64,000 bases of DNA from Anaerolinea sp. (GTDB lineage: Bacteria; Chloroflexota; Anaerolineae; Anaerolineales; Anaerolineaceae). Both the position numbers and the translations under genes were made by a program. Where the stretch lies: NCBI GenBank assembly GCA_029975055.1, contig JARKPU010000055.1, positions 17,251 through 81,250 on the forward strand, read 5' to 3'. Positions within the stretch are counted from its first letter, which is position 1. Every line of letters begins with the position of its first letter. The notes beneath the pieces are model-generated. The model did no database searches. It was given only the letters and a program-made list of their open reading frames with translations, and was not told the DNA's origin. Shown here piece by piece: positions 13,499 to 51,610 of this stretch.

Positions 13499-14767
13499 TT
13501 AGATTCCTTCCAGCATCAGCAGCGCGTCTTCCCAATGCGCAGGCACCGAGAACCACTCGCTCGTCCAGCGCGCGAAGGTGGCGCCCGTGGCATTGCCGGT
13601 GAGGTATTCGCCCCCCGCCTGGTGCTCGCCGGTGGCGGGGTTGATCCAGGTGGCGCGCGCCTTGCGCGCGGCAATGCGGTCTACCCGCACATAGGCGTGG
13701 CACTGGCTGGAGAGGTAGAGCAGCGCCAGGCGCCGATCGGGGGTGCGCATGGCCGCGTTGAGCGTGCGCCCGCAGCTGGTGCCTTCGTTGAACAGGGTCT
13801 GGTCGGGGATCATTTCCCACCAGGGGAAATGCCCGATGATCTGGCGCAGCATGCCCATGTGGAATGCGCCCGGCGAATCGAGCGCGCCCTGCCAGCCGGG
13901 TTCCATGCGCCACATCTGGTTTTGTCCATACGTGGGGAAGCCCCCGGCCATCACGGCCCACCAGGCCTGCCGGCGCACCACCAGCGGGGTGATCGGCCCG
14001 AGCGGGTATTCCGGGCCGTCTTCATAGGCGCCCTCGGCGTGCACAACCGGCTTGGGCGGGTCGAGCGCCCGGTCGGCCGAGACTGCCTGGTACACCGCCG
14101 GCCAGGCCGACCACGTCTGGATCATATTGAAGTCCAGCCAATCTTCATTGTGGAAGTAGTAGGAAGACGAGAAGAACCCGCACGGGTGATAGGAGATCAG
14201 GTGGCTGCCCCCATCTCCGGCGCGCAGCCCGCGGGCAATGGCCCGCCAGGTATCGGCGCAGTCCGCCGGTTCGCGGTCGCCCCCGTTGACCCAGATGAGG
14301 TTCGGCGCGTCTTTGAAGCGCCTTCCCAGCCATTCGCCGTAGGCGTAGCCGTTTTGCGGGTCGAACACGCGGCTGTCGTTCACATGGAAGCCCCAGGTGG
14401 GCAGCACTGCCAGTACAAGCCCCAGTTCGGCGGCGCGGCGCAGGAGCGTCTCCACGTAATTAAAAAAGGCCGGGTTCGGTTCGGCGGGGGTCTGCTTCCA
14501 GGGCGGTTCGCCGTGATAGTTCGCCCTGGGGGGCGTTCCGGCCAGGTTGGGCGGGATGGGGTCGCCCCAGGCCAGCACGCACTGGATGACGCTGAAGCCC
14601 TTGGCCGCCCGGTTGACCAGGTGACGGTCGGCCGCCTCGGGGCTGTAGCTGACGAAGAAGGGCCAGGCGGTATCGCCCAGCCAGAAGAAAGGCCTGCCGT
14701 TCGCATCAACGAAATAGCGCCGGTTCGGGCTCACGCGAATGGGGCCGGGGAAGGTGGTTGCTGGCAT
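13499..14767 (-). CDS. DUF4038 / GH140 apiosidase-like glycoside hydrolase with C-terminal putative collagen-binding-like domain
   Basis: YFVDANGRPFFWLGDTAW, RAAKGFSVIQ, IWVNGGD, ISYHP, WLDFNMIQTW, KPVVHAEGAYE; SD GAGG before MPATTF; no signal peptide seen. Confidence 0.75.
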   Translation of the reverse strand: MPATTFPGPIRVSPNRRYFVDANGRPFFWLGDTAWPFFVSYSPEAADRHLVNRAAKGFSVIQCVLAWGDPIPPNLAGTPPRANYHGEPPWKQTPAEPNPAFFNYVETLLRRAAELGLVLAVLPTWGFHVNDSRVFDPQNGYAYGEWLGRRFKDAPNLIWVNGGDREPADCADTWRAIARGLRAGDGGSHLISYHPCGFFSSSYYFHNEDWLDFNMIQTWSAWPAVYQAVSADRALDPPKPVVHAEGAYEDGPEYPLGPITPLVVRRQAWWAVMAGGFPTYGQNQMWRMEPGWQGALDSPGAFHMGMLRQIIGHFPWWEMIPDQTLFNEGTSCGRTLNAAMRTPDRRLALLYLSSQCHAYVRVDRIAARKARATWINPATGEHQAGGEYLTGNATGATFARWTSEWFSVPAHWEDALLMLEGI

Positions 14768-15029
14768 ATGAACCTCGCTGAAACGGATTGAACCTTGCGA
14801 AGGAATTCGCTTCCAGGGATCAGTCGAAATGCACACAGCCTTGCGCGGGATGGTCGTCAACCGCATGGTCAGGCTCGTTAATATTATCCATCAAAACCGC
14901 GCAATTTCCATCGAGGATTCTCAACGAGCCGGCACCTTCGCCGTGGATTAGAATACCGATAAAACCAACCGTTTTAGGCGAATTTTTTGGTATAATATCA
15001 TAAATATCTTCTGAATTGAACGGTGCCCC

Positions 15030-37033: not shown

Positions 37034-37393
37034 ATGAGTGAGCCTGCTCCAGATCAAAATCCGCCCCCGACGATGACCGCGCTCAAAGCAGTGATGCTTG
37101 GGCAGTTGATGGTGAACCTGCCGTTGTTCCTCATCGTCCTGATCACCTTTATCCTCTGCGGAACGCTGTTTCCCAACCAGCCGTTCATCGGGCTGGTGGC
37201 TGCGCTGGCGCTGGGCTGGGGCTGGTGGACGCTTGCCACGCGCCGCTGGCGCGCCTGGGCGCTCGCCAGGGGCGTCCCTCCGCGCGAACTCACCCGCATG
37301 GCTTCGTTCACCGGGCTGGCCTCGCCGCGCGATTACTACAACCAGGAACTCGAAGACAAAGAAGAGGACGACGACACGCCCCCTTACAGGTAA
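37034..37393 (+). CDS. Hypothetical two-TM membrane protein with acidic tail
   Basis: GQLMVNLPLF..., WRAWALARG; upstream TATAAT at about 37005. Confidence 0.6.
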   Translation: MSEPAPDQNPPPTMTALKAVMLGQLMVNLPLFLIVLITFILCGTLFPNQPFIGLVAALALGWGWWTLATRRWRAWALARGVPPRELTRMASFTGLASPRDYYNQELEDKEEDDDTPPYR

Positions 37394-37397
37394 GCGC

Positions 37398-38675
37398 ATG
37401 AGACTACCCCAAACCGATCCAAGCAAGCTGGCGCTGCCCGCCGAGAAGATGCAGTGGTGGCGCGACGCCAAGTTCGGCATGTTCCTCCACTGGGGCATTT
37501 ATGCCATCACCGGGCGCGGCGAGTGGGTGATGTGGAACGAGCGCATCCCCTTGCGCGAATATCGCAAGCTGGCCGACCAGTTTGCCCCGCAAAAGTTCAA
37601 CCCGCGCGCCTGGGCCGAGGTGGCCCGCGCAGCGGGGATGAAGTACATGGTGCTCACCGCCAAACACCACGACGGCTTCTGCCTCTTCGACAGCGCAGCG
37701 AGCGACTTCACCAGCGTCAAAACCGCCGCCCGGCGCGATTTCGTCGCCGAGTATGTGCAGGCCTGCCGCGAGGCCGGGCTGGGCGTTGGCCTCTATTACT
37801 CCCCGCTCGACTGGCGCTTCCCGGGCTTCTTCTTCCCCGATCTCTACCGCGAAAGCGCCGAGGAGATGAAGCAGCAGACCTATGCCCAGGTGCGCGAGCT
37901 GCTCAGCAACTATGGCAAGATCGACATCTTCTGGTTCGACGGCGGCGAGGACGACTGGCTGGGCTTCGGCGGCCTCGAGTGGGGCCCGGGCGGCTGGCAT
38001 TCGCGCGATACGCGCTGGCCTCAAGAGAAACACTACCCCGGCAAACCGCTCTGGGAGGCGCACAAACTGGTGGCGATGATGCGCGAGCTGCAGCCCGACG
38101 TGGTGATCAACAACCGCAGCGGCTGGGAGGGCGATTTTCTGACCCCCGAGCGCAAGGTGGGCGCGTTCAATACGCAGCGCGCCTGGGAAACCTGCGATAC
38201 GCTGGCTGAATCCTGGGGGTATATGCCCAACCGCAGGCTGCGTTCGCTGCGCAGCATCATCCACCTGCTCGTCCAGGTGGTCACCGGCGATGGCAACCTG
38301 CTCCTCAACGTGGCCCCCACGCCGGATGGAGAGATCGAGCCGCGCCAGGCGCGCCGGCTGGCCCAGGTGGGCGAGTGGCTGGCTGAATACGGGCAGAGCA
38401 TCTACGCCACGCGCGGCGGGCCGTTCGCCCCGCAGCCCTGGGGGGGCTTCACCTGGCAGGGCAACCGGCTTTACGCGCATGTGATCGACTGGCCCGAAGA
38501 TATGATCGCCATCCCGGCCATGCCGCAGCGCATCCTGCGCGTCCGCTCGCTGACTTCCAACGAGGTGATCCTCGAAAAGCCCAACGGCGAGCTCTTTGTG
38601 CGCGTGCCGCCGGCCGACCGCCAGGCCATCGACACGATCATCGAGATCGAGCTCGAAAGCCCCGTGGAGGGTTAA
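37398..38675 (+). CDS. Alpha-L-fucosidase (GH29)
   Basis: WWRDAKFGMFLHWG, LTAKHHDGF, GLYYSPLDW, WFDG, VVINNR, GNLLLNVAP. Confidence 0.9.
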   Translation: MRLPQTDPSKLALPAEKMQWWRDAKFGMFLHWGIYAITGRGEWVMWNERIPLREYRKLADQFAPQKFNPRAWAEVARAAGMKYMVLTAKHHDGFCLFDSAASDFTSVKTAARRDFVAEYVQACREAGLGVGLYYSPLDWRFPGFFFPDLYRESAEEMKQQTYAQVRELLSNYGKIDIFWFDGGEDDWLGFGGLEWGPGGWHSRDTRWPQEKHYPGKPLWEAHKLVAMMRELQPDVVINNRSGWEGDFLTPERKVGAFNTQRAWETCDTLAESWGYMPNRRLRSLRSIIHLLVQVVTGDGNLLLNVAPTPDGEIEPRQARRLAQVGEWLAEYGQSIYATRGGPFAPQPWGGFTWQGNRLYAHVIDWPEDMIAIPAMPQRILRVRSLTSNEVILEKPNGELFVRVPPADRQAIDTIIEIELESPVEG

Positions 38676-39570: not shown

Positions 39571-40215
39571 ATGTTCAACGTGTGCTACCGCTGCGGCGCA
39601 TACCGCGCCGATAAAACCATCGAACCGGAAGGCGGAGGCACCGCAGCCTTTGCCGCCTGCCCGGAATGCGGCTTCAGGCATCCCTTCCTCAGACTGCCGC
39701 TCTTCATCATCGGCGGGGCCAGCGGGGCGGGCAAATCGGCGGCCTGCGCGGCCCTGGCGCGGAATTTCGGCGCGGCGGTGGTGCTCGAATCCGACATCCT
39801 CTGGAACGATTTTTACGCCGATCCGCAGCGCTACCCCGAATACTTCAACACCTGGCTGCGCCTGGGCAAGAACATCGCCCAGGCAGGCAAACCCGCGGCG
39901 CTGTGCGGAGCCGGGCTGGGCGTGCCGGGCAACATCGAGCCGTGCGTGGAGCGGCGCTACTTCTCGCAGGTGCATTACCTTGCCCTGGTCTGCGAGGATT
40001 CAGCCCTCGAAGCCCGCCTGCGGGCGCGGCCTGCCTGGCGCGGCTCGGGCGCGGCGGAATGGCTGAAAAGCCAGTTGAGTTTCAACCGCTGGTATCAAGA
40101 GCAGGCCCCGCAGGGCTGCCCGCCCGTGGAGCTGTTCGACACCACCCGCACCACCGTCGAAGCAACCGCCGCCGCCATCGCCGCCTGGATCACCTCCAAA
40201 TTATCGCGGGCCTGA
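39571..40215 (+). CDS. P-loop kinase (AAA_33-like) with N-terminal Zn-ribbon
   Basis: CYRC...CPEC, then IGGASGAGKS Walker A. Confidence 0.75.
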   Translation: MFNVCYRCGAYRADKTIEPEGGGTAAFAACPECGFRHPFLRLPLFIIGGASGAGKSAACAALARNFGAAVVLESDILWNDFYADPQRYPEYFNTWLRLGKNIAQAGKPAALCGAGLGVPGNIEPCVERRYFSQVHYLALVCEDSALEARLRARPAWRGSGAAEWLKSQLSFNRWYQEQAPQGCPPVELFDTTRTTVEATAAAIAAWITSKLSRA

Positions 40216-40420: not shown

Positions 40421-43400
40421 ATGTCCCCAACCCCCAATCCCGTCCAGGCGCGGGTAGAGCGGATGACCATTCCCACCTACCCGGCCCTCGAACCCGACCC
40501 CAACCCGATGTTCTTCGAATCGCGCAACATCCAGGGCAGCAAAGGCAACATCTACCCCCACCCCTATATTGACCGCCTCTCCTCCGAGAAGGTCGAGCGC
40601 GATTACACCGCCGTGGTGCTCGAAAACGAATACCTGCAGATGATCCTGCTGCCGGAGATCGGCGGGCGCATCTTCGCCGGGCTGGATAAAACCAACGGCT
40701 ACGACTTCTTCTACCGCCACAAGGTGATCAAACCCGCCCTCATCGGCCTCTTTGGCCCGTGGATTTCCGGCGGAGTCGAGTTCAACTGGCCGCAGCACCA
40801 CCGCCCCTCCACCTTCGACCCAACCCATTTCAGCATCGAAGAGGGCGCCGATGGCTCGCGGACCGTCTGGATGAGCGAGCATGACCCGCTCAACCGCACC
40901 AAAGGCATGGTGGGGGTCACGCTCTACCCCGGCAAAGCGTTCGTCGAGACCAAAGTGCGCCTCTACAACCGCACGTCCTTCCCGCAGACTTTCCTCTGGT
41001 GGGCCAATGCGGGTGTGCACATCAACGAGAAATACCAGGTCATCTTCCCGCCCGATGTGCATTATGCCGTTTATCACACCAAGAACCCGGTGACGGAATA
41101 CCCCATCTCGAAGGGCGGTTTTGGCCGCGATGAAGAGAACGGCGAGGGCGTGGATGTGAGCTGGTGGGCCAACTCGCCCAACGCCACCTCGTTCTTTGCC
41201 GCCCCCTCGCGCTACGAGTTCTTCGGCGGCTACGACCACGCCGTTCGCGCCGGGGTGGTGCACGTGGCCGACGCGGGCATCTCGCCGGGCAAGAAGTTCT
41301 TCACCTGGGGCAACGGGCCATTCGGCCACACCTGGCAGAAGAACCTGATGGACGACACCGGCGAATACCTCGAGCTGATGGCGGGCGTCTACACCGATAA
41401 CCAGCCGGATTTCTCCTGGATCATGCCGCACGAGACGCGCACCTTCAGCCAGTTCTGGTTCCCGGTTCAGGAGATCGGCCCGATGAAGAACGCCAACCTG
41501 CGCGCGGCCGTCAACCTGGAAGTACGGGGCGGGCAGGCTTTCGTTGGGGTCTATGCCACCGAACCCACCCCCGGCGCGCGCGTCAGCCTCTCGGCGCGCG
41601 GGCTCACCTTGCTCGAGCGTGCGCTCGACCTGGCCCCCGGCAAGCCCTTCACCCACGAAGTACCGCTGCCCGCCGGCCTGCCCGAGACCGACCTGCTCCT
41701 GCGCGTAGAGGACGCCTCCGGCGCGGAGATCATCCGCTACCAGCCCGAAGGCCCGTGGGACGGGAAAATCGCCGAGCCTTACAAGGCCCCGCCTGCCCCG
41801 CAGGATACCGTCGAGATCGAGCAGCTGTTCTTGATCGGCCTGCACCTCGAGCAGTACCGCCACCCCACCCTCTCGCCCGAGCCCTACTGGCAGGAAGCCC
41901 TGCGCCGCGACCCCGGCGATGCGCGCTGCAACCTGGCCCTCGGCAAGGCCGCCCTGCGCCGCGGGCTGTTTGCTCAGGCCGAAGAGCACTTCCGGGCCGC
42001 CGTTCGGCGCCTGACCGCCTGGAACTTCAACCCCTACGACGGTGAAGCCCATTACAACCTGGGCCTGGCCCTGCAATACCAGGGCCGGCTGGATGAAGCC
42101 TACCCGGCGTTCTACAAGGCCGTCTGGAATTACGCCTGGCAGTCGGCGGGCTACTTCGCCCTTGCGCAGATCGACATCACCCGCGGAGACTTCGCCAAAG
42201 CCCTCGATCACCTCGAGCGCTCGCTGGCGGTCAACCGGTACAGCAGCCGGGCGCGCCTGCTCAAAACCGCCCTCCTGCGCCGCGCCGGGCGGCTGGATTC
42301 TGCCGAAGCGCTGGCCGCCGAGAGCGCCGCGCTGGATATGCATGATTACGGCGCGCACTTCGAACTGGCCCTGTTGGCCGGGGCGCGCGGCGACCCATCC
42401 GCGCAGGAGGCGCGCCTGGCCGCGCTCAAAAGCCTGCTGGGCGGCGATGTGCAAACCGCCCTCGACCTGGCCTTCGATTACGCTTCATCCGGCCTCTATG
42501 CTGAAGCGCAGCGCCTGCTGGGGCTGTTTACCCAGGCCGGGCCGCTCTACCCGATGACGGCCTACCTGCTGGCCTGGCTGGCCCGCCGCCTTGGCGCAGA
42601 CGAGCAGGCCCGCGTCTGGTCCGAGAAGGCCGCGCAGGCCGATGCGGCGTATTGCTTCCCCTGGCGGCTGGAAGAAATGCTCGTCTTGCAGGAAGCGCTC
42701 GCGCACTCCCCCGCCGATGCCCGCGCCGCCTACTACCTGGGCAACCTGCTCTACGACCGGCGCCGCTGTGCCGAGGCGGTGGAGCTTTGGAAAAAAGCCG
42801 CCGCGCTCGAACCGGGCTTTTCGATCCCCTGGCGCAACCTGGGCCTGGCCGCCTACAACCAGGAGAAAGACCTCGACTCCGCGCTCGAATATTACCGCAA
42901 GGCCATCGCCGCCAACCCCGCCGACCCGCGCCTGTTGGTCGAGTATGATCACCTCTTGCAGCGCAAGGCCGTTTTGCCCGAAGAGCGCCTGGCCCTGCTG
43001 GAGGGCAGCCTGCCCGTGGTGGAGCTGCGCGACGACCTGACCATCCACCTGATGAGCCTGTACAACCGCACCGGCCGGCCCGAAAAGGCGCTCGCTATTG
43101 CCCTCGCGCGCAAGTTCCACGCCTGGGAGGGCGGCGAAGGCTCGGTGGCCGGGCAGTACATCAACGCCCACTGGCTGCTCGGGCGGCAGGCCCTCGAAGC
43201 AGGCGACGCGCCCCGCGCGCTCGAGCATTTCGAGGCCGGGCTGACCTTCCCGGAGAACCTGGGCGAGCATCCCTGGGAGGGCCTCTATGCCCCGCTGGTC
43301 TATTGCAAGGGCCTGGCGCTGGCAAAACTCGGGCGGCAGGAGGAAGCCCGCGCGGCCTTCGAGCACGCCGCGCGCATCCGCGGCTGGTTCTCGGCCCCGG

Positions 43401-43714
43401 CGGTGACGAACGCGCTGGCGAAAATCCAGCTCGGCCAGGTGGAAGAAGGCCATGCCGCGCTGCTCGAGGTTCGCCGCAAAGCCGAGGAGGAGGCCCGCAA
43501 GCCCTTCGAATGGAATTACTTCTACTCCGGCAACCCCAGCCCCACCTTCGAAGAAGACCACCAGGAACTTAAACGCCTGAACTGCCTGCTCACCGCCGGG
43601 CTGGCATCGGCGGCGCTGGGTGACGTGCCTGCTGCGCGCAGCGCACTCGGGCAAGTGCTCGCCGCCGATCCCTCCAACCTGGCCGCCTGGGAGGAATACC
43701 GGCGCCTCCCGTAA
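40421..43714 (+). CDS. DUF5107 domain plus C-terminal TPR array protein
   Basis: VVLENEYLQMILLPEIGGRI, WISGGVEFNWPQHHRP, KKFFTWG, ELMAGVYTDNQPDF, then many TPRs. Confidence 0.8.
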   Translation: MSPTPNPVQARVERMTIPTYPALEPDPNPMFFESRNIQGSKGNIYPHPYIDRLSSEKVERDYTAVVLENEYLQMILLPEIGGRIFAGLDKTNGYDFFYRHKVIKPALIGLFGPWISGGVEFNWPQHHRPSTFDPTHFSIEEGADGSRTVWMSEHDPLNRTKGMVGVTLYPGKAFVETKVRLYNRTSFPQTFLWWANAGVHINEKYQVIFPPDVHYAVYHTKNPVTEYPISKGGFGRDEENGEGVDVSWWANSPNATSFFAAPSRYEFFGGYDHAVRAGVVHVADAGISPGKKFFTWGNGPFGHTWQKNLMDDTGEYLELMAGVYTDNQPDFSWIMPHETRTFSQFWFPVQEIGPMKNANLRAAVNLEVRGGQAFVGVYATEPTPGARVSLSARGLTLLERALDLAPGKPFTHEVPLPAGLPETDLLLRVEDASGAEIIRYQPEGPWDGKIAEPYKAPPAPQDTVEIEQLFLIGLHLEQYRHPTLSPEPYWQEALRRDPGDARCNLALGKAALRRGLFAQAEEHFRAAVRRLTAWNFNPYDGEAHYNLGLALQYQGRLDEAYPAFYKAVWNYAWQSAGYFALAQIDITRGDFAKALDHLERSLAVNRYSSRARLLKTALLRRAGRLDSAEALAAESAALDMHDYGAHFELALLAGARGDPSAQEARLAALKSLLGGDVQTALDLAFDYASSGLYAEAQRLLGLFTQAGPLYPMTAYLLAWLARRLGADEQARVWSEKAAQADAAYCFPWRLEEMLVLQEALAHSPADARAAYYLGNLLYDRRRCAEAVELWKKAAALEPGFSIPWRNLGLAAYNQEKDLDSALEYYRKAIAANPADPRLLVEYDHLLQRKAVLPEERLALLEGSLPVVELRDDLTIHLMSLYNRTGRPEKALAIALARKFHAWEGGEGSVAGQYINAHWLLGRQALEAGDAPRALEHFEAGLTFPENLGEHPWEGLYAPLVYCKGLALAKLGRQEEARAAFEHAARIRGWFSAPAVTNALAKIQLGQVEEGHAALLEVRRKAEEEARKPFEWNYFYSGNPSPTFEEDHQELKRLNCLLTAGLASAALGDVPAARSALGQVLAADPSNLAAWEEYRRLP

Positions 43715-43725
43715 GATTCCCAAAA

Positions 43726-44005
43726 ACCTCCCGGTAGCCCTGCCCCCTCCCTTAACCCTCCCCCAAGAACGCGGCGATCTTGGGGGAGGGTTTGGGTGGG
43801 GGTCAAAACGCGGTGAAATTGGGCGCGGCTCCACGCGAGGGGATATGCCTTTCGGATCACCTCCCGGTAGGGTGCGCTCGATTTGATGAGCGCACCATCT
43901 TTCATGCCCAGGCCGGTTCAGTCCTGCCCCCTCCCTTAGGGTTTGGGTGGGGGTCAAAACGCGTCGATTCTTAGCGCGGCTCCACGCGAGGGGGTATGCC
44001 TCTCG
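43726..44005. repeat. Two tandem composite repeat units, the second carrying a GTAG-REP insert
   Basis: Both units begin ACCTCCCGGTAG (43726, 43859) and share CTGCCCCCTCCCTTA...GGGTTTGGGTGGGGGTCAAAACGCG...GCGCGGCTCCACGCGAGGGG; REP at 43867-43896. Confidence 0.8.
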
Positions 44006-44054
44006 GGCGATTCAGGTATACTAACTACTGGATGTACCTCACCCGTTCAGGAGA

Positions 44055-45476
44055 ATGACCATGCCGGAATGGAACCTGCCTGAGGAGCGTTGCTTCGACC
44101 CCGACCCCGCCACCCGGCGCACTGCGCTGTTTCTCTACGAAGCCATCGCCGGCCTGCCGATCGTCAGCCCGCACGGCCACGTGGACGCCCGCCTGTTCGC
44201 CGATCCCGCCGCGTCTTTTGGCTCTCCGGCCGACCTGTTGATCATCCCCGACCATTACGTCTTCCGCCTGCTCCACTCGCAGGGCGTGCCCCTCGAAGAC
44301 CTGGGCATCGCGCGGCTGGATGGCGGCCCCGTGGAGCGCGACCATCGCAAGATCTGGCAGCGTTTCGCCGAGAATTTCCACCTCTTTCGCGGCACGCCCT
44401 CGGGCCTGTGGCTGGCTTATGAGTTCAAATACGTGCTTGGCATCCATGAGCAGCCCGATGCCGAGAACGCCTCCCGGCTGTATGACCAGGTGGCCGAACG
44501 CCTGGCCTCGCCCGAGTTCCGCCCGCGCGCCGTCTTCGAGCGCTTCAACATCGAGGTGCTTGCCACCACCGACCCGCCCGCCGACCCGCTGGCAGCACAC
44601 GCTGCCCTGCGCGCCTCGGGCTGGCCGGGCCGGGTGATCCCCACCTTTCGCCCCGATGCGCTCTTCAACCTCTCCGACCCCGGCTGGCGCGAGCAGATCG
44701 AAGCCCTCAGCCAGGCCAGCGGCATCGCCGTGCACGATTACCCCTCCTTCCTCGCCGCGCTCGAGAACCGCCGCGCTTACTTCAGGCAGATGGGCGCCAC
44801 CGCCACCGACCAGGGTCTCTTCGAGCTGGAGGTGGAGCCGCTGGATGAGACCGACGCCAAAGTGATCTTCCGCCGCGCGCTGGACGGCATCGCCAACCCG
44901 GACGATGCGGTTCAATTCGCCGCCCACATGCTGCTGGAGATGGCGCGCATGTCTTGCGCCGACGGGCTGGTGATGCAAATTCACCCCGGTTCGCTGCGCA
45001 ACCACAACCCGGCGGTGTTCGAGCGCTTCGGGCGCGATAAGGGCTACGATATCCCCGTCCGCGCCGAGTTCACGCGCTCGCTTCGCCCTCTGCTGAGCCG
45101 CTTCGGCGAAGACCCGCGCCTGCGGCTGATCCTCTTCACCCTCGATGAAACCACCTACGCGCGCGAGCTGGCCCCCCTGGCCGGGGTTTACCCGGCGGTG
45201 CGCCTCGGGCCGCCCTGGTGGTTCCACGACTCGTGGAACGGCATGCGCCGTTACTTCGACCAGGTGATGGAAACCGCCGGAATCTACAACACCGCCGGCT
45301 TCAACGACGACACGCGCGCCTTCCTCTCCATCCCGGCCCGGCACGACCTGTGGCGGCGCGCCGGCGCCAACTGGCTGGCCGGGCTGGTGGCGCGCGGCAT
45401 GCTTGGCCGCGACGAGGCCGCCGATATGGCCGTGGAACTGGCCTACCGCCTGCCCAAGAAGGCCTATAACCTCTGA
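44055..45476 (+). CDS. uxaC: Glucuronate/galacturonate (uronate) isomerase
   Basis: IVSPHGHVD, IIPDHY, MQIHPG, LGPPWWFHDS, AGFNDDTRAF. Confidence 0.92.
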   Translation: MTMPEWNLPEERCFDPDPATRRTALFLYEAIAGLPIVSPHGHVDARLFADPAASFGSPADLLIIPDHYVFRLLHSQGVPLEDLGIARLDGGPVERDHRKIWQRFAENFHLFRGTPSGLWLAYEFKYVLGIHEQPDAENASRLYDQVAERLASPEFRPRAVFERFNIEVLATTDPPADPLAAHAALRASGWPGRVIPTFRPDALFNLSDPGWREQIEALSQASGIAVHDYPSFLAALENRRAYFRQMGATATDQGLFELEVEPLDETDAKVIFRRALDGIANPDDAVQFAAHMLLEMARMSCADGLVMQIHPGSLRNHNPAVFERFGRDKGYDIPVRAEFTRSLRPLLSRFGEDPRLRLILFTLDETTYARELAPLAGVYPAVRLGPPWWFHDSWNGMRRYFDQVMETAGIYNTAGFNDDTRAFLSIPARHDLWRRAGANWLAGLVARGMLGRDEAADMAVELAYRLPKKAYNL

Positions 45477-46870
45477 TGATCGCCTACCCTGCATCCATCG
45501 TCGCGCACGAAGGCACCCGTTACACCCTGGTGCGCCTGGCCTCCGGCGAGAAGGCCCTGCTGGTAGAGGGCCGGGCGGGCGGCTTTGAGCCGCTCGGCCA
45601 AACCCCCGGCGGGGGCGTGCTCTGCCCGCTCACAGCGGCCAATGCCGCCGCGCTGCGCGCCAGGCTGCCCTGGCTCAACCCCGCGCCGCTGGGCCGCCGC
45701 GCATCCATCGGCCTGGGCGACCGGCTCGGCCTGGCCACACCCGGCCATGCCCGCGCCGTGCAGGGGTCGGGCACCCTGCCGGTCTTCGCGCAGCAATCGG
45801 TGCGCGAGAATGCCCGCACCGGCCGCACCCCCCAGCAGGTGCTGGATGACGCCGCCTGGGGGGTCTTCCAATCCGGCTGGCAGGGCCCCTGGGGCGCAGA
45901 TGCCGATCACCTCAAACGCGCCGAAGACCTGCCCCCCTTCCTCGCCTCCGGTTACACCTTCTTCACCATCGACCCCGGCGAGCACGTCCAGGCCGTGGAA
46001 CCCGCCGAAACGCCCGATGCGCTGCGCGCCCGGCTGAGCCCCGCCGAGCTGGCGGAACTGCGCGCCGCCTACCGCGGGCGCAGCTACAGCCTCGACAGCC
46101 TCACGCTCTCCTTCGATGAAGAAAGCCTGCTGCGCGCGGCGGTCAAATATGGGCGCGCCGTCGAGCACGCCGTGCGCCTCTACCGGCAGATCGAGCGCTC
46201 GCTGGGCGGCAAGGCCTTTGACTTCGAGCTTTCGGTGGACGAGACCGGGCAGCCCACCAGTCCGCTCGAGCACCTCTTCATCGCCGCCGAGCTCGACCGG
46301 CGCGGCGTGCGCTGCACCAGCCTGGCCCCGCGCTTCGTCGGCGCGTTCGAGAAGGGCGTCGAATACATCGGCGATCTGGTGGAGCTGGAAGACCACATGG
46401 CCCGGCACGCCGCGGTGACGCGCCTGTTCGGCGGTTACAAGCTCAGCCTGCACTCCGGCTCCGATAAATTCACCGTCTATGGCCCGGCCGCCGGCCACAC
46501 CCGCGGCCTGCTGCACCTCAAAACGGCCGGCACCTCTTACCTGGAGGCGCTGCGCGTCGTCGCCCGCCGCGAACCGGGCCTCTTCCGGCGCATCTTCACC
46601 CTCAGCCTGGAGTGCTACCCCTCCGAACGGGCCAGTTACCATGTCTCGGCCCGCCCGGAGCGCCTGCCGCCCCTGGATATGCTCTTCGACGTGGCTCTGC
46701 CCGGCCTGCTCGACCACCCGGATGCGCGCCAGGTGCTGCACGTGGCCTACGGCGCAGCCCTGGCCCGGCACGGCGCGGAGCTGCGCGCGGCGCTCCTGCA
46801 AAACGAGGAAGAGTACGCCGCCGCCCTGGCGGAGCACCTCGGCAGGCATGTGCGGGAGATGAGGGTCTAG
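45476..46870 (+). CDS. uxaE: Tagaturonate/fructuronate epimerase
   Basis: GLGDRLGLATPGH, FAQQSVRE, ADADHLK, FELSVDET, KLSLHSGSDKF, HLKTAGTSYLEALR. Confidence 0.88.
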   Translation: MIAYPASIVAHEGTRYTLVRLASGEKALLVEGRAGGFEPLGQTPGGGVLCPLTAANAAALRARLPWLNPAPLGRRASIGLGDRLGLATPGHARAVQGSGTLPVFAQQSVRENARTGRTPQQVLDDAAWGVFQSGWQGPWGADADHLKRAEDLPPFLASGYTFFTIDPGEHVQAVEPAETPDALRARLSPAELAELRAAYRGRSYSLDSLTLSFDEESLLRAAVKYGRAVEHAVRLYRQIERSLGGKAFDFELSVDETGQPTSPLEHLFIAAELDRRGVRCTSLAPRFVGAFEKGVEYIGDLVELEDHMARHAAVTRLFGGYKLSLHSGSDKFTVYGPAAGHTRGLLHLKTAGTSYLEALRVVARREPGLFRRIFTLSLECYPSERASYHVSARPERLPPLDMLFDVALPGLLDHPDARQVLHVAYGAALARHGAELRAALLQNEEEYAAALAEHLGRHVREMRV

Positions 46871-46951
46871 ACACTCAGGAGACGATCCGGGGCACCTGAG
46901 TGACCGGGCGCCTGATCCCTGAGCGCGAACATCACCACAAGGAGCAGACCA

Positions 46952-47785
46952 GTGATCGAATCGTACCTTACCAACCTCTTCTCCCTTAGCGGGCAGGTGG
47001 CCGCGGTCACCGGGGCCACGGGCGTGCTCGGCGGGGCCATGGCCCGCGGGCTGGCCAGGGCCGGGGCAAAGGTTGCCATCCTGGGGCGCAATGCCGAAAG
47101 CTGCTCCGCGATGGCCGCCGAACTCCAGGCCGAAGGCAGCCAGGCTCTGGCCGTCACCTGCGACGTGCTCGACCCGCCCGCCGTGCAGGCCGCCTGCGCG
47201 CAGGTGGTGGCGGCCTTTGGCAAGGTGGATATCCTCGTCAACTCCGCCGGCGGCAACCAGCCGGGGGCCACCGCCGGGCCGGGCCAGCCCTTCTTCGACC
47301 TGCCCCCCGAAGCCCTCCAGGCCGTCTTCGACCTCAACCTGCTCGGCACGCTCTACCCCTGCCAGGCCTTCGGCGCGCAGATGGCGCGCCAGAAAGGCGG
47401 GGTGATCCTCAACATCACCTCCATGGCCGCCTACCGCCCGCTGACGCGCGTGGTGGCCTACGCGGCGGCCAAGGCCGCGGTGAGCAACTTCACCGCCTGG
47501 CTGGCGGTCCACCTGGCCAGGGAATATTCGCCCGAAATCCGCGTGAATGCCATCGCGCCGGGGTTCTTCCTCACCGCGCAGAATCGCTTTTTGCTCACCG
47601 ACCGCCAGACGGGCGAGCTTTCGCCGCGCGGCCAGGCCATCATCGCGCACACCCCCATGGGGCGCTTTGGCCAGCCCGATGACCTGGTGGGCACGGCCAT
47701 CTGGCTGGCCTCGCCTGCCGCGCGCTTCGTCACCGGCGTGGTGGTGCCGGTGGATGGCGGCTTCAACGCCTTCAGCGGGGTGTAA
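46952..47785 (+). CDS. SDR oxidoreductase, fructuronate reductase (D-mannonate oxidoreductase, UxuB-like)
   Basis: TGATGVLG, NSAGGN, LTRVVAYAAAK, VNAIAPGFFLTAQNRFLL, VDGGFNAFSGV; context after uxaC-uxaE. Confidence 0.75.
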   Translation: MIESYLTNLFSLSGQVAAVTGATGVLGGAMARGLARAGAKVAILGRNAESCSAMAAELQAEGSQALAVTCDVLDPPAVQAACAQVVAAFGKVDILVNSAGGNQPGATAGPGQPFFDLPPEALQAVFDLNLLGTLYPCQAFGAQMARQKGGVILNITSMAAYRPLTRVVAYAAAKAAVSNFTAWLAVHLAREYSPEIRVNAIAPGFFLTAQNRFLLTDRQTGELSPRGQAIIAHTPMGRFGQPDDLVGTAIWLASPAARFVTGVVVPVDGGFNAFSGV

Positions 47786-47824
47786 AGCCCCGCGCCGGGC
47801 ATGGAACGATCTGAGGACAACCCG

Positions 47825-48577
47825 ATGAACGCCACATTCAAATCGAAATTAACCCGCCACGAACGCCTGCTGGGCACGGTCGTCAGCCTGCCGCTGCCCG
47901 AAATCGCCGAGATGAGCGCCAACGCCGGCTTCGACTGGCTTTTCCTCGATATGGAACACGGCCTGCTCGACTTCGACATGGTGCAGCGCATGGCCATGGC
48001 CGCCGGCACGCGCTGCGCCTGCCTGGCGCGCCTGCCCGCCTCCACCAGCGTGTGGATCAAAAAAGCTCTCGACCTGGGCATCGCCGGCATCATCGTGCCC
48101 ATGGTCAACACGCCCGAAGAAGCCGCGCGCGTGGTGCGCCACGCCAAGTACCCGCCCTTGGGGCAGCGCAGCGTGGGCGTGGGCCGCGCCCACCGCTACG
48201 GGGCCAACTTCCGCGTCTATGTGGATATGGCCAACGAACACACCAGTGTCATCGTGCAGATCGAGCACATCCAGGCCGTCGAGAATGTGGAGGCCATCCT
48301 GGAGGTGCCGGGCGTCGATGCCGCGCTCGTCGGGCCGTTCGACCTTTCGGCCAGCATGGGCAAGCCGGGCTTCACCGACGACCCCGCCGTGCGCGCGGCC
48401 ATCCTGCGCGTGCTGGAAGCCTGCAAAGCGCGCGGCAAAGCCGCCGGCATCTTCATGGGCGATACCCCGGGCGCCCGCTGGGCCATCGAACAGGGCTTCA
48501 CGCTGGTGGCCTGCTCCAGCGATATGCTCCAGCTTTCGGGCGCGCTCGGCGGCCTGTTGAAGGAGTTGAAGCCCTAG
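47825..48577 (+). CDS. HpcH/HpaI-family class II aldolase (GarL-like)
   Basis: FDWLFLDMEHG, IIVPMVNT, YPPLGQRSVG, VQIE, GPFDLSASMG; alternative start at 47801. Confidence 0.85.
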   Translation: MNATFKSKLTRHERLLGTVVSLPLPEIAEMSANAGFDWLFLDMEHGLLDFDMVQRMAMAAGTRCACLARLPASTSVWIKKALDLGIAGIIVPMVNTPEEAARVVRHAKYPPLGQRSVGVGRAHRYGANFRVYVDMANEHTSVIVQIEHIQAVENVEAILEVPGVDAALVGPFDLSASMGKPGFTDDPAVRAAILRVLEACKARGKAAGIFMGDTPGARWAIEQGFTLVACSSDMLQLSGALGGLLKELKP

Positions 48578-48628
48578 ACCTTGTGAATCAGAGAAGACCC
48601 GAAAGGTCTCTCGAATGAAAGAGGCCCT

Positions 48629-49888
48629 ATGACTGCCAATGGAATTGGGTTTACCGACCGCTACCTCTCGGAAGCCGAGCTGGCCTCCGTCATCGCCGAG
48701 GGGGTTGAAGCCCTGGGCCTGCCCGGCAGGCGCGTGCTGGTGATCATCCCAGACGGCACGCGCACCATGCCCCTGGCGCAGATGTCGCGCCTGCTCGAAG
48801 AGCAGCTCGCCGGGCGGGTGAAAGCCCTCGATTACCTGGTGGCCCTCGGCACCCACATGCTCATGGATGACGCCGCCCTGAGCCGCCACTTCGGCAGGCC
48901 CGTGACGGGCGGCAGGCTGGGGGCGGGGCGCGTCTTCAACCACCGCTGGATGGACGCCGACACCTTCGTCCGGCTCGGCGTCATCCCTGCCGAAGAGGTG
49001 CGCTCGCTGACGGACGGACTCTTCGCCCAGGAGGTGCCGGTGCGCCTCAACCGCCTCGTGCTGGAGTATGAGCGCATCCTCATCCTCGGGCCGGTCTTCC
49101 CCCACGAGGTGGTGGGGTTCTCGGGCGGCAACAAGTATTTCTTCCCGGGCGTCGCCGGGCCGGAGATCATCAACTTCACCCACTGGCTGGGCGCGGTGCT
49201 CACCAACTACCGCGTCATCGGCTCGGGCTACACGCCCGTCCGTGCGGTGATCGACTCGGCGGCGCGGATGATCCCCACGCCCGCCGGCTGCTTCGCCCTG
49301 GTGGTGACGCACGAAGGCGTCGCCGGGCTGTATTACGGCTCGCCGCAGGAAGCCTGGCAGAGCGCCGCCGCGCTTTCGGCGCACAAGCACATCGTCTATG
49401 TGGAGAAGCCCTACCGCCGCGTCATCTCCGTCATGCCGCGCCTCTATGACGACCTGTGGACCGGCGCCAAAGGCATGTACAAGATGGAGCCGGTGGTTGC
49501 AGACGGCGGCGAGGTGGTCATCTTCGCGCCGCACATCGGCGAGGTGAGTTACACCCACGGCAAAGTGCTGGATGAAATCGGCTATCACACGCGCGATTAC
49601 TTCCTCCAGCAGTGGGAGCGCTTCAAGCACCACCCCTGGGGCGTGCTGGCGCACTCCACGCACGTCAAAGGCCTGGGAACGTATGACGCCGCAACCGGCA
49701 TCGAAAGCCCGCGCATCCAGGTGACGCTGGCAACGGGCATCCCCGCCGCGCGCTGCGAGCGCATCAACCTGAACTACCTCGACCCTGCCGCGCTGTACCT
49801 CGAAGACTGGCAGAACCGCGAGGCCGAGGGCGTGCTGGTGGTTCCGCGCGCCGGCGAGATGCTCTACCGCCTGAGGGAAGGGGTATAA
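48629..49888 (+). CDS. Lactate racemase (LarA) superfamily nickel-pincer racemase/epimerase
   Basis: IIPDGTRT, VALGTH, FNH, PHEVVGFSGGNKYFFPG, GAKGMYK. Confidence 0.85.
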   Translation: MTANGIGFTDRYLSEAELASVIAEGVEALGLPGRRVLVIIPDGTRTMPLAQMSRLLEEQLAGRVKALDYLVALGTHMLMDDAALSRHFGRPVTGGRLGAGRVFNHRWMDADTFVRLGVIPAEEVRSLTDGLFAQEVPVRLNRLVLEYERILILGPVFPHEVVGFSGGNKYFFPGVAGPEIINFTHWLGAVLTNYRVIGSGYTPVRAVIDSAARMIPTPAGCFALVVTHEGVAGLYYGSPQEAWQSAAALSAHKHIVYVEKPYRRVISVMPRLYDDLWTGAKGMYKMEPVVADGGEVVIFAPHIGEVSYTHGKVLDEIGYHTRDYFLQQWERFKHHPWGVLAHSTHVKGLGTYDAATGIESPRIQVTLATGIPAARCERINLNYLDPAALYLEDWQNREAEGVLVVPRAGEMLYRLREGV

Positions 49889-49975
49889 TTTCCTGGCCGC
49901 CTGTCTCACAGGCTTCATCCTTTATTGAACTGAGATCGAGCGGAATTTCGAAGCGCATCAACCGGAGGTATCAAC

Positions 49976-51388
49976 ATGGCAAAAGCATCCATTGGCGTGG
50001 TTGGGCTGGGCGTGATGGGCCGCAACCTCGTCTTGAACATCGAACGCAACGGCTTCCACGTGGCCGTCTATAACCGGACTCAATCGAAAATGCAGGCCTT
50101 CTTGCAGGGCGAAGCCGCCGGCAAGCATATCACCGGCAGCGACTCTTACCCCGCGCTGATGGCCCAGCTCGAAAAGCCGCGCTGCGTGCTGCTCATGGTC
50201 ACCGCGGGCAGCGCAGTGGACGCCGGGATTGAAGAGATCAAGCCTTTCCTCGAACCGGGCGACATCTTGATCGACGGCGGCAATTCCTACTTCATGGATA
50301 CCGAACGGCGCAGCCTGGCGCTCACCGCCGAGGGGCTGCACTTTGTGGGCATGGGCGTCTCGGGCGGCGAGGAAGGCGCGCTGTGGGGGCCTTCCATCAT
50401 GCCGGGCGGCACGCCCGAAGCCTGGCAGGCGCTCGCGCCCATCCTGCGCAAGATTGCCGCCAAAGCCGAGGAAGACGGCGAGCCGTGCGTCACGCACATC
50501 GGGCCGCGCGGCGCCGGCCACTACGTCAAGACCGTCCACAATGGCATCGAGTACGCCGATATGCAGCTCATCGCCGAGATCTACGACCTGCTCTCCCGCG
50601 GGGCGGGCCTGCCCGCCGCCGAGCTGGCGGGTATCTTCGATGAGTGGAACCGGGGCGAGCTGCGCTCGTATCTGATCGAGATCACTGCCAAGATTCTGCG
50701 CCGCACCGATGAAATCACCGGCAAGCCCCTGGTTGAAATGGTGCTGGATGAAGCCCAGCAAAAAGGCACCGGCAAATGGACCAGCCAGAACGCCTTCGAC
50801 ATCGGCGCGCCGATCCCCACCATCAACGCCGCCGTCGAGAGCCGCATCCTTTCCTCGCTCAAGGCCGAGCGCGTCGCCGCCAGCCGGGTGCTGCGCGGCC
50901 CCAGCCCGCGCTTCACAGGCGACCGGGCCGCGCTGGTCGAAGCCGCCCGCGCGGCGCTCTATGCCAGCAAAATCCTCTCCTACGCCCAGGGGATGAGCCT
51001 GCTGCGCATCGCTTCGGCCGAGTACGATTATCACCTCGACCTGGCCGAGATCGCGCGCATCTGGCGCGCAGGCTGCATCATCCGCGCCGGGCTGCTGGGC
51101 GATATCACCGCCGCCTACCGGCGCAACCCGGCCCTGAGCAACCTGCTGCTCGATGACGCCTTCCGCCAAGCCGTAGAGAGCCGCCAGGCCGCCCTGCGCC
51201 ACGTGCTGCAGACGGCCATCGGGCTGGGCATTCCGGCGCTGGCGCTGGGGAGCGCATTGGCCTATTACGATGCCTACCGCAGCGAGCGCCTGCCCGCCAA
51301 CCTCACCCAGGCCCAGCGCGATTTCTTCGGCGCGCACACCTACCGCCGGGTAGATCAAGAAGGCATATTCCACACCGATTGGGAATAG
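49976..51388 (+). CDS. gndA: NADP-dependent 6-phosphogluconate dehydrogenase, decarboxylating
   Basis: [48 protein letters not shown]. Confidence 0.95.
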
Positions 51389-51543: not shown

Positions 51544-51581
51544 CTGCGTGTCTTAGTGCTGTGCCAATATCGTCGACGTTG

Positions 51582-51610
51582 AAAAGTGGGCCGAACCCAC
51601 TTTTCTTGTT
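51582..51610 (+). promoter_or_regulatory. Terminator-like leader hairpin upstream of nusA (rimP-leader-like attenuator)
   Basis: AAAAGTGGG-CCGAA-CCCACTTTT-CTTGTT lies between the promoter and nusA. Confidence 0.6.

What the first reader, a model, noticed from the sequence alone, without database searches (positions are those of the whole stretch)
44055..51388. UxuA-independent hexuronate route via a LarA-family epimerase into the pentose phosphate pathway
Seen: the order uxaC-uxaE-SDR-aldolase-larA-like-gnd, with no mannonate dehydratase (uxuA), kdgK or eda in the cluster. Known: UxaC, UxaE and UxuB convert galacturonate or glucuronate to D-mannonate; some LarA-superfamily enzymes are D-mannonate/D-gluconate 2-epimerases (GntE, described from Thermotoga); Gnd consumes 6-phosphogluconate. 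Inference: mannonate to gluconate to 6-phosphogluconate to ribulose-5-phosphate, yielding NADPH. This needs a gluconokinase and LarB/C/E for the nickel-pincer cofactor, none of which is in the window.
Basis: partly seen in the sequence, partly recalled or inferred. Interest (0 to 1): 0.62.

Follow-up and report, generated by a model that had tools for sequence, protein, structure and literature searches.

The report
Known nickel-epimerase hexuronate operon, Chloroflexota copy
Six adjacent genes in this Anaerolineae-type (Chloroflexota) bacterium most likely turn uronic acids from plant cell walls into pentose phosphate through a nickel-cofactor mannonate/gluconate epimerase, a route proposed for Thermotoga in 2012 whose key enzyme was confirmed in 2020, so it is a useful annotation rather than a discovery.

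Summary
Window 44055-51388 carries, on one strand, uxaC, uxaE, a mannonate-oxidoreductase-type SDR, an HpcH/HpaI aldolase, a LarA homologue and gnd.

The LarA homologue is a GntE-type enzyme:
- Its best solved relative is Thermotoga maritima GntE2 (PDB 4NAR, E 1e-60, full length).
- All nickel-pincer (NPN) binding and catalytic residues are present, as is the published GntE signature E-V-A-H.
- The genome has larB-larE-larC.

The route mannonate to gluconate to 6-phosphogluconate to ribulose-5-phosphate is therefore well supported. It is also already published: the Thermotoga operon gnd-uxaRED-gntEK, with GntE2 assayed in 2020. This scan has noted the same module in at least 40 other genomes.

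"UxuA-independent" is not shown. A UxuA homologue, a KdgK-like kinase and two Eda genes lie elsewhere in the genome, as in Thermotoga.

Two local oddities remain:
- There is no kinase in the cluster. In 15 of 17 Chloroflexota loci compared, a PfkB- or PFK-type kinase lies within 6 kb of the epimerase gene. The best candidate here is an unlinked FGGY gluconokinase-like gene.
- The intact aldolase has no assigned step.

The organism is Chloroflexota (Anaerolineae), not Acidobacteriota.

The parts
44055..45476 (+). uxaC, uronate (glucuronate/galacturonate) isomerase; the only copy in the genome
   Evidence: NF002794 513 bits against a cut-off of 387; PF02614 260 bits. tblastn finds a single copy in G000.
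45476..46870 (+). uxaE, tagaturonate/fructuronate 3-epimerase; its start overlaps the uxaC stop; the only copy in the genome
   Evidence: PF16257 464 bits, covering positions 50-473 of the 475-position profile. Single copy.
46952..47785 (+). SDR-type fructuronate reductase / D-mannonate oxidoreductase, the counterpart of Thermotoga UxaD
   Evidence: NF006132 373 bits against a cut-off of 281. A 57-76% identical SDR lies beside the LarA homologue in 16 of 17 Chloroflexota and 22 of 35 Acidobacteriota loci.
47801..48577 (+). HpcH/HpaI class II pyruvate aldolase with an intact active site; its substrate is unknown and it is an accessory found only in this sub-clade. The gene call on record starts 8 codons later, giving 250 aa.
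   Evidence: PF03328 123 bits. HpaI, GarL and RhmA equivalogs score 144-183 bits against cut-offs of 369-441. His53, Arg77, Glu155 and Asp181 align with the conserved DxEH, R-x-P, Q-x-E and GPxDL motifs of solved HpcH-family aldolases; that these are the catalytic and metal-binding residues is from memory of GarL/YfaU/HpaI. The gene occurs only in the LarAH sub-clade made of the window, L080, L091, L095 and L127.
48629..49888 (+). gntE-type LarA homologue: an NPN-dependent D-mannonate/D-gluconate 2-epimerase (predicted)
   Evidence: Best PDB match is 4NAR (T. maritima GntE2), E 1.2e-60 over residues 13-417, 33% identity. Residues D42, R45, H76, H159, K169, H185 and K281 are present, with the GntE signature E160-V161 and A341-H342. 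In the tree it groups with GntE2 and apart from the three LarA paralogues of the same genome.
49976..51388 (+). gnd, NADP-type decarboxylating 6-phosphogluconate dehydrogenase; a second copy tied to this cluster
   Evidence: NF006765 697 bits against 413; TIGR00873 668 bits. A second, 36% identical gnd-like gene lies on C70, 8 kb from a zwf.
43871..43896 (+). terminator-like hairpin upstream of uxaC, marking the end of the preceding transcription unit
   Evidence: 10-pair stem followed by a T-rich tail. This is a consensus match only.
51581..51605 (+). terminator-like hairpin between gnd and nusA
   Evidence: 10-pair stem followed by a T-run. This is a consensus match only.

Best explanation
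The six genes form one operon for glucuronate and galacturonate catabolism. It is the Chloroflexota counterpart of the Thermotoga gnd-uxaE-uxaD-gntE(-gntK) route.

Proposed steps:
1. UxaC isomerises the uronates to fructuronate or tagaturonate.
2. UxaE epimerises tagaturonate to fructuronate.
3. The SDR reduces fructuronate to D-mannonate.
4. The LarA homologue, loaded with the nickel-pincer nucleotide made by LarB/LarE/LarC encoded on another contig, inverts C2 by transient hydride transfer and gives D-gluconate.
5. A kinase encoded elsewhere makes 6-phosphogluconate. The best candidate is the FGGY gluconokinase-like gene at G000:C78:37537-39072.
6. The cluster's own Gnd converts 6-phosphogluconate to ribulose-5-phosphate, CO2 and NADPH.

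This route runs beside, not instead of, the UxuA/KdgK/Eda route encoded elsewhere in the genome.

Shown here: gene identities, active-site and signature residues, presence of the cofactor genes, and conserved linkage of SDR, epimerase and gnd.

Inferred: the substrates, the direction of flux, the identity of the kinase, and transcription as one unit.

The aldolase is catalytically intact but has no place in this scheme. My best guess is a side branch that cleaves a 2-keto-3-deoxy sugar acid such as KDG to pyruvate plus an aldehyde.
For: Gene identities: all six genes match their families, five of them above curated cut-offs.

The LarA homologue:
- It aligns over its full length with the assayed GntE2, PDB 4NAR, at E 1e-60.
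- GntE2 scores 214 bits against it and 45 bits or less against the three paralogues in the genome.
- It keeps the residues that Desguin 2020 lists for NPN binding and catalysis (PMC7583248).
- It carries the E, V, A, H signature given for GntEs in PMC11770544.

Cofactor genes: larB, larE and larC lie together on C53, each above its cut-off.

Linkage, within 6 kb of the epimerase gene in 17 Chloroflexota loci with enough flank: gnd in 16, the SDR in 16, uxaE in 8, and a kinase in 15.

Other points:
- The window's gnd is a second copy in addition to a zwf-linked gnd-like gene.
- uxaC and uxaE are single-copy, so all uronate isomerisation passes through this cluster.
- The Thermotoga operon has the same core and is induced on pectin (PMC3750489).
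- The FGGY gene on C78 scores higher against gluconokinase (370 bits) than against xylulokinase (294 bits).
- That gene has a 73% identical orthologue in the nearest genome that carries the same kinase-less cluster.
Against: - No enzyme of this cluster has been assayed.
- Identity to GntE2 is only 33%, and GntE2 sits on a long branch in the tree.
- GntE2's Km for mannonate is 17 mM, and GntE1's high Km (120 mM) made the authors doubt its native substrate.
- The cluster has no kinase. The FGGY candidate is far below its equivalog cut-off (370 against 649 bits) and sits among unrelated genes.
- Orthologues of the FGGY candidate elsewhere in the phylum occur only in genomes without the epimerase.
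- The aldolase is unexplained.
- A UxuA route is available for the same mannonate.
- Co-transcription is inferred from spacing only.
Confidence: 0.7

Rival explanations
1. Same pathway, opposite order, as in Lactobacillus suebicus. Mannonate is phosphorylated first, and the LarA homologue is a 6-phosphomannonate 2-epimerase whose product goes straight to Gnd.
For: In L. suebicus extracts mannonate was converted only after phosphorylation, and a GntE homologue was expressed on galacturonate (PMC6978723). GntE2 has a Km of 17 mM for free mannonate. In most related loci a sugar-acid kinase is tightly linked to the epimerase and gnd.
Against: GntE2, GntE1 and LarAH15 all epimerise unphosphorylated mannonate and gluconate in vitro. 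No 6-phosphomannonate epimerase gene has been identified anywhere. The window's cluster has no kinase at all.
Confidence: 0.14
2. The epimerase acts on a different hexonate or aldarate, and the aldolase belongs to that route. For example, a 2-keto-3-deoxy acid formed after epimerisation and dehydration would be cleaved to pyruvate plus an aldehyde. In this reading gnd is linked only loosely.
For: The best NCBIfam model is the untested group-18 'putative hexonate epimerase', at 182 bits against a cut-off of 500. The authors suspect that GntE1 has another native substrate. An intact aldolase sits immediately upstream of the epimerase gene in this sub-clade.
Against: No dehydratase is in the cluster. 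The signature residues are those of GntEs. The SDR-epimerase-gnd linkage holds in many loci that lack the aldolase. The nearest aldolase homologues outside this clade lie in contexts unrelated to sugar acids.
Confidence: 0.09
3. The epimerase mainly runs from gluconate to mannonate, feeding gluconate into the UxuA/KdgK/Eda route. Its position next to gnd reflects shared regulation of sugar-acid genes rather than consecutive steps.
For: The reaction is freely reversible. The genome has a UxuA homologue, a KdgK-like kinase and Eda, and no clear gluconokinase.
Against: uxaC, uxaE and the reductase in the same operon all produce mannonate. gnd linkage is nearly universal in the loci compared. The UxuA homologues are not in sugar-acid contexts.
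Confidence: 0.07

Closest known systems
Thermotoga maritima UxaR-regulated operon aldH-pelB-gnd-uxaR-uxaE-uxaD-gntE-gntK (GntE2 = LarAH20, PDB 4NAR)
   Same: The core is the same: UxaE, an SDR fructuronate reductase, a GntE-type NPN epimerase and a dedicated gnd. The proposed chemistry is the same: mannonate to gluconate to 6-phosphogluconate to ribulose-5-phosphate. In both organisms the route coexists with UxuA/KdgK/Eda genes.
   Different: Here uxaC is inside the operon. No regulator or FGGY gntK is adjacent, and an HpcH/HpaI aldolase sits between the reductase and the epimerase. The epimerase is only 33% identical to GntE2. The host is Chloroflexota.
UxaE-SDR-LarAH-Gnd-PfkB kinase modules of Anaerolineae and Terriglobia (loci L086-L155)
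   Same: The epimerases are orthologous (62-74% identical), with the same SDR and gnd neighbours.
   Different: Those loci carry a KdgK-like PfkB kinase (12 of 17 Chloroflexota loci) or a PPi-PFK-like gene (3 of 17) within 6 kb of the epimerase gene, usually just after gnd. The window's genome has no orthologue of either and has the aldolase instead.
Lactobacillus suebicus galacturonate pathway (mannonate kinase plus 6-phosphomannonate 2-epimerase)
   Same: The upper pathway (UxaC, UxaE, fructuronate reductase) and the end point (6-phosphogluconate, then Gnd) are the same.
   Different: The order of kinase and epimerase is reversed. The genes for the two new steps were not identified there, and the products go to phosphoketolase.
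Classical Ashwell isomerase pathway (UxaC, UxuB/UxaB, UxuA/UxaA, KdgK, Eda)
   Same: The entry steps as far as mannonate are the same. The genome also encodes a UxuA homologue, a KdgK-like kinase and Eda elsewhere.
   Different: The cluster itself has no dehydratase, KDG kinase or KDPG aldolase.
Lactate racemase LarA of Lactiplantibacillus plantarum
   Same: Same fold. The NPN-tethering Lys, the Ni-binding His and the two catalytic His are shared, and both depend on LarB/C/E.
   Different: The substrate-pocket residues differ: E-V and A-H here instead of F-F and W-T. phmmer against LarA chains gives only 14-26 bits.

Membership tests
GntE (NPN-dependent D-gluconate/D-mannonate 2-epimerase, LarA superfamily) | NPN-binding residues equivalent to LarA R75, K184 and H200 | tested here: met
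   R45, K169 and H185 align with GntE2 R41, K164 and H180 (alignment; residue list from PMC7583248).
GntE (NPN-dependent D-gluconate/D-mannonate 2-epimerase, LarA superfamily) | Catalytic residues equivalent to LarA D72, H108, H174 and K298 | tested here: met
   D42, H76, H159 and K281 (in the motif WTGAK) are present.
GntE (NPN-dependent D-gluconate/D-mannonate 2-epimerase, LarA superfamily) | Substrate-pocket signature E, V, A, H at the positions of LarA F175, F176, W358 and T359 | tested here: met
   E160, V161, A341 and H342. A341-H342 align with A351-H352 of GntE2 (signature from PMC11770544). The mapping of the last two positions rests on a sequence alignment, not on a structure.
GntE (NPN-dependent D-gluconate/D-mannonate 2-epimerase, LarA superfamily) | Closer to characterised GntEs than to Lar, Mar, Hgr or Plr | tested here: met
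   phmmer against PDB: GntE2 209 bits, Lar and Mar chains 14-26 bits. NCBIfam: hexonate group 18 scores 182 bits, MAR 76 and LarA 62. In the tree it groups with GntE2 and apart from the three paralogues (SH-aLRT 100), although GntE2 is on a long branch. No curated model is passed (182 against 500). GntE1 and LarAH15 could not be fetched for the tree.
GntE (NPN-dependent D-gluconate/D-mannonate 2-epimerase, LarA superfamily) | Cofactor biosynthesis genes larB, larC and larE in the genome | tested here: met
   LarB 306 bits against 175, LarE 293 against 150 and LarC 216 against 90, adjacent at C53:33539-35699. A second larE lies on C68.
GntE (NPN-dependent D-gluconate/D-mannonate 2-epimerase, LarA superfamily) | Measured C2 epimerisation of D-mannonate/D-gluconate | not testable with these tools
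   This needs an enzyme assay with the NPN-loaded protein.
Thermotoga-type hexuronate-to-pentose-phosphate route | Linked UxaE, fructuronate reductase, GntE and gnd | tested here: met
   All four lie in one same-strand cluster. The linkage recurs across loci.
Thermotoga-type hexuronate-to-pentose-phosphate route | A gluconate (or mannonate) 6-kinase | tested here: inconclusive
   None is in the cluster. No SKI-type gntK is in the genome. The FGGY gene on C78 scores 370 bits against a cut-off of 649, though gluconokinase is its best family. There is no orthologue of the cluster-type PfkB or PFK kinases. A zinc-ribbon P-loop kinase at 39571-40215 has gluconate kinase among its fold neighbours, but not specifically.
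HpcH/HpaI class II pyruvate aldolases | Conserved active-site motifs carrying the catalytic His and Arg and the metal-binding Glu and Asp | tested here: met
   His53, Arg77, Glu155 and Asp181 sit in the DxEH, R-x-P, Q-x-E and GPxDL motifs shared with 1DXE (GarL), 2VWS (YfaU), 7V8T and 4MF4. The catalytic roles are from memory of those enzymes.
GarL / HpaI / RhmA (specific aldolase equivalogs) | Score above the NCBIfam equivalog cut-off | tested here: not met
   HpaI 183 against 369, GarL 166-173 against 393-407, RhmA 144 against 441. The substrate therefore cannot be assigned.
6-phosphogluconate dehydrogenase (decarboxylating, NADP) | Score above the equivalog cut-offs, with full-length two-domain architecture | tested here: met
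   NF006765 697 against 413; TIGR00873 668 against 427; PF03446 plus PF00393.

The most novel reading that the evidence does not exclude
In this Anaerolineae sub-clade the operon has gained an HpcH-type aldolase, and in the window's lineage it carries none of the kinases found in related clusters. The most novel reading not excluded is that the aldolase opens a kinase-free outlet. It would cleave a non-phosphorylated 2-keto-3-deoxy-hexonate (KDG made from mannonate by the unlinked UxuA) or a 2-keto-hexonate to pyruvate or hydroxypyruvate plus glyceraldehyde. The operon would then split uronate carbon between an NADPH-yielding Gnd branch and a non-phosphorylative aldolase branch.
Probability: 0.12. 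Interest if true: 0.5.

Novelty: new member of a known kind. Interest (0 to 1): 0.27.

Why it matters
It gives a sound annotation for a gene that databases label 'lactate racemase'. It also shows that the GntE shunt from uronic acids to the pentose phosphate pathway occurs in Anaerolineae (59 of 301 sampled genomes of the phylum carry a homologue) and in Terriglobia, both common in soils and sediments where pectin and hemicellulose are degraded. The route yields NADPH and pentose phosphates instead of pyruvate plus glyceraldehyde-3-phosphate, which changes the predicted redox and carbon budgets in metabolic models of these organisms. The open points are the kinase step and the aldolase. Across relatives, three unrelated kinase families appear to fill the same slot, and none of them has been assayed.

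Tried and rejected
1. Acidobacteriota origin. This was my first guess from the names on protein hits. I rejected it: the nearest genomes are Chloroflexota. G148:C2 is a Brevefilum contig, and L080 is labelled 'Chloroflexia'.

2. Co-occurrence test for the FGGY kinase. Orthologues (39% identity or more) occur in 13 of 300 genomes of the phylum, and none of those has the epimerase. This gives no support beyond the one close relative.

3. The zinc-ribbon P-loop kinase at 39571-40215 as a hidden gluconokinase. The AlphaFold model is confident (pLDDT 94). Its fold neighbours, however, are generic small-molecule kinases: chloramphenicol phosphotransferase first, then gluconate and shikimate kinases, with TM-scores of 0.5-0.6. 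NCBIfam gives no match. It stays a weak lead.

4. Inferring the aldolase substrate from the contexts of its 55-59% identical homologues. These sit near ffh, lpxR and biotin carboxylase genes, which says nothing about sugar acids.

5. Genomic contexts of the UxuA homologues and of the C78 kinase. None is a sugar-acid cluster.

6. Rodionova 2012 (PMC4505799) is not held. It is cited only through papers that quote it.

8. The 89-nt direct repeat upstream of uxaC is local only, not a family spread across the genome.

Full report
**What is there**

Window 44055-51388 holds six same-strand genes with high third-position GC:
- uxaC, 44055-45476: NF002794, 513 bits against a cut-off of 387.
- uxaE, 45476-46870: PF16257, 464 bits.
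- An SDR of the 'D-mannonate oxidoreductase' subfamily, 46952-47785: NF006132, 373 bits against 281.
- An HpcH/HpaI aldolase, 47801-48577.
- A LarA homologue, 48629-49888.
- NADP-type gnd, 49976-51388: 697 bits against 413.

The gaps between the genes are -1, 81, 15, 51 and 87 nt. Ten-pair terminator-like hairpins lie just outside the block, at 43871-43896 and 51581-51605. These are consensus matches only, and the total count in the region is no higher than in shuffled sequence.

Downstream come nusA, infB, a DHH-family protein and truB. Upstream are a 1097-aa DUF5107/TPR protein, a small P-loop kinase, a methyltransferase and an alpha-L-fucosidase.

**The organism**

The nearest genomes are Chloroflexota. 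A same-family genome contig (G148:C2, 218,803 bp) is the Brevefilum sp. record DAOSSA010000002.1. The closest cluster (74% identical LarA homologue) is in an 'uncultured Chloroflexia bacterium' MAG. G000 is 4.59 Mb in 81 contigs and 99.98% complete.

**The LarA homologue is a GntE-type enzyme**

- Its best solved relative is 4NAR, at E 1.2e-60 over residues 13-417. Desguin et al. 2020 identify 4NAR as T. maritima GntE2/LarAH20 and measured D-mannonate/D-gluconate 2-epimerase activity that requires NPN (PMC7583248).
- Identity to GntE2 is 33%. The three other LarA homologues in the genome score 45 bits or less against GntE2.
- From the alignment and the sequence, the NPN-binding residues R45, K169 and H185 are present, as are the catalytic residues D42, H76, H159 and K281.
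- The four specificity positions read E160, V161, A341 and H342. This is the 'E, V, A, H' pattern that Urdiain-Arraiza et al. 2024 give for GntEs (PMC11770544).
- In a maximum-likelihood tree of 102 sequences, the window protein and its homologues group with GntE2 and apart from the three paralogues (SH-aLRT 100). GntE2 sits on a long branch, so the orthology is distant.
- No NCBIfam equivalog is passed. The best is the untested group-18 'putative hexonate epimerase', at 182 bits against 500.

**Cofactor genes**

larB (306 bits against 175), larE (293 against 150) and larC (216 against 90) are adjacent at C53:33539-35699. A second larE lies on C68.

**Linkage across genomes**

A scan of one genome per species returned 396 relatives, and the best 80 were fetched with 10-kb flanks. 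I mapped the window's proteins and candidate partners onto them and counted genes within 6 kb of the epimerase gene in loci with enough flank.

| Neighbour | Chloroflexota (17 loci) | Acidobacteriota (35 loci) |
|---|---|---|
| gnd | 16 | 11 |
| SDR | 16 | 22 |
| uxaE | 8 | 1 |
| uxaC | 4 | 0 |
| KdgK-like PfkB kinase | 12 | 8 |
| PPi-PFK-like gene | 3 | 5 |
| HpcH aldolase | 3 | 0 |

The recurrent module is UxaE-SDR-epimerase-Gnd-kinase. This is strong comparative support for mannonate to gluconate to 6-phosphogluconate to ribulose-5-phosphate.

Within G000:
- uxaC and uxaE are single-copy.
- The window's gnd is a second copy. A 36% identical gnd-like gene lies on C70 about 8 kb from one of two zwf genes.

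**This is already known**

- The T. maritima UxaR regulon contains the operon aldH-pelB-gnd-uxaRED-gntEK. It is induced on pectin and coexists with kdgAK-uxuBA (PMC3750489).
- Valk et al. 2020 state that Rodionova et al. 2012 proposed exactly this epimerase/kinase link to 6-phosphogluconate and had already noted gntE homologues in other genera (PMC6978723).
- Desguin 2020 then demonstrated the enzyme activity.
- This scan's own notes list the same module in at least 40 other genomes, with follow-up verdicts like mine. I checked the PfkB linkage and the PFK-plus-HAD linkage myself.

**'UxuA-independent' is not established**

- G000 has a UxuA homologue that passes the NCBIfam subfamily cut-off (C43:158358-159350, 234 bits against 191) and a weaker one on C41.
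- It has a KdgK-like PfkB kinase at C4:187152-188237, with 502 bits to the kinase part of a KDPG-aldolase/kinase fusion model.
- It has two Eda genes, on C41 and C4.
- These genes are scattered and not in obvious uronate clusters.
Both outlets for mannonate are therefore possible, as in Thermotoga. Which one carries the flux cannot be told from sequence.

**The kinase gap**

- The cluster has no kinase, and neither do its two closest relatives.
- No SKI-type gluconokinase is found in the genome.
- Of the FGGY kinase genes found in the genome, I scored six against NCBIfam. Only C78:37537-39072 has gluconokinase as its best family (370 bits against 294 for xylulokinase), still below the 649-bit cut-off. 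Its neighbours are unrelated.
- A 73% identical orthologue exists in the nearest genome with the same kinase-less cluster.
- Elsewhere in the phylum, its orthologues occur only in genomes that lack the epimerase.
- The genome has no orthologue of the cluster-type PfkB kinase (best hit 30%, which is the KdgK-like gene), nor of the cluster-type PFK or the HAD-like protein.
- A zinc-ribbon P-loop kinase at 39571-40215 folds confidently (pLDDT 94). It resembles gluconate kinase no more than chloramphenicol phosphotransferase or shikimate kinase.
The kinase step is the weakest link. The FGGY gene is the best candidate, but only tentatively.

**The aldolase**

- It keeps the conserved active-site motifs of solved HpcH-family aldolases, with His53, Arg77, Glu155 and Asp181 at the expected positions.
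- It matches no specific equivalog.
- In the epimerase tree, the loci that carry it (window, L080; L091, L095, L127) form one clade with SH-aLRT 98. It was therefore probably acquired once.
- In the Anaerolinea loci the order is AraC regulator, GFO oxidoreductase, xylose-isomerase-like TIM protein, UxaC, SDR, HAD, HpcH, epimerase, Gnd, PFK, LacI regulator.
- Its 55-59% identical homologues elsewhere lie in contexts unrelated to sugar acids.
No step of the published route needs an aldolase. A side branch that cleaves KDG or a related 2-keto acid is my guess, with low confidence.

**Verdict**

The finding is a new member of a known kind, of modest interest. The residual questions are the kinase and the aldolase.

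Noticed in passing
L060:10938-12023 and equivalents in L088, L097, L100-L102, L112, L120-L125, L128-L135, L143, L146, L148, L149, L152, L153, L155: A KdgK-like PfkB kinase, 70-82% identical among loci, follows gnd or the epimerase gene in 12 of 17 Chloroflexota and 8 of 35 Acidobacteriota loci. It is a likely gluconate or mannonate 6-kinase from a family not known for that activity. The window's genome lacks it.
   Followed up: partly
L027:11309-12592; L095:12925-14208 and L095:8322-9236: In other loci a PPi-phosphofructokinase-like gene (NF010675, 355 bits against 273) takes the kinase position. In the Anaerolinea loci it comes with a 304-aa HAD-like protein. Earlier notes of this scan report the same PFK-plus-phosphatase pair.
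   Followed up: partly
window 39571-40215 (+): A 214-aa zinc-ribbon plus P-loop small-molecule kinase belonging to a large uncharacterised family (1669 homologues found). The model is confident (pLDDT 94). Its fold neighbours include gluconate kinase, chloramphenicol phosphotransferase and shikimate kinase. The same synteny is seen only in the closest relative (L029).
   Followed up: partly
window 43740-43860 and 43922-44010: An imperfect direct repeat of about 70-90 nt (87% identity), present twice in the uxaC upstream region and nowhere else in the genome. It could be a duplicated regulatory region.
   Followed up: partly
tree; loci L080-L159: Epimerase sequences from Chloroflexota and Acidobacteriota interleave in the tree. 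Terriglobia proteins are 65-71% identical to the window protein, against 63-64% for the same-family genus Brevefilum. This points to transfer of the module between phyla.
   Followed up: partly
G000:C4:747818-748426, C4:353213-353800, C4:464040-464630: Three further LarA homologues lie in the same genome. One has the lactate-racemase-like motif EPHFFAGFSGGGK. Their substrates were not examined.
   Followed up: no
window 13499-14866 (-) and 37233-38675 (+): An apiosidase-like glycoside hydrolase and an alpha-L-fucosidase lie in the window. Both sugars occur in pectin side chains (rhamnogalacturonan II), which fits a pectin-degrading lifestyle.
   Followed up: no
G000:C4:166225-168227: A GFO/IDH/MocA oxidoreductase and a xylose-isomerase-like TIM protein, 66-68% identical to the pair that precedes uxaC in the Anaerolinea clusters, lie on C4 about 12 kb from eda and about 20 kb from the KdgK-like gene. 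This looks like a second sugar-acid region.
   Followed up: no
window 40421-43714 (+): A 1097-aa DUF5107 plus TPR protein lies directly upstream of uxaC. In relative L029 the same gene is split into several short ORFs.
   Followed up: no
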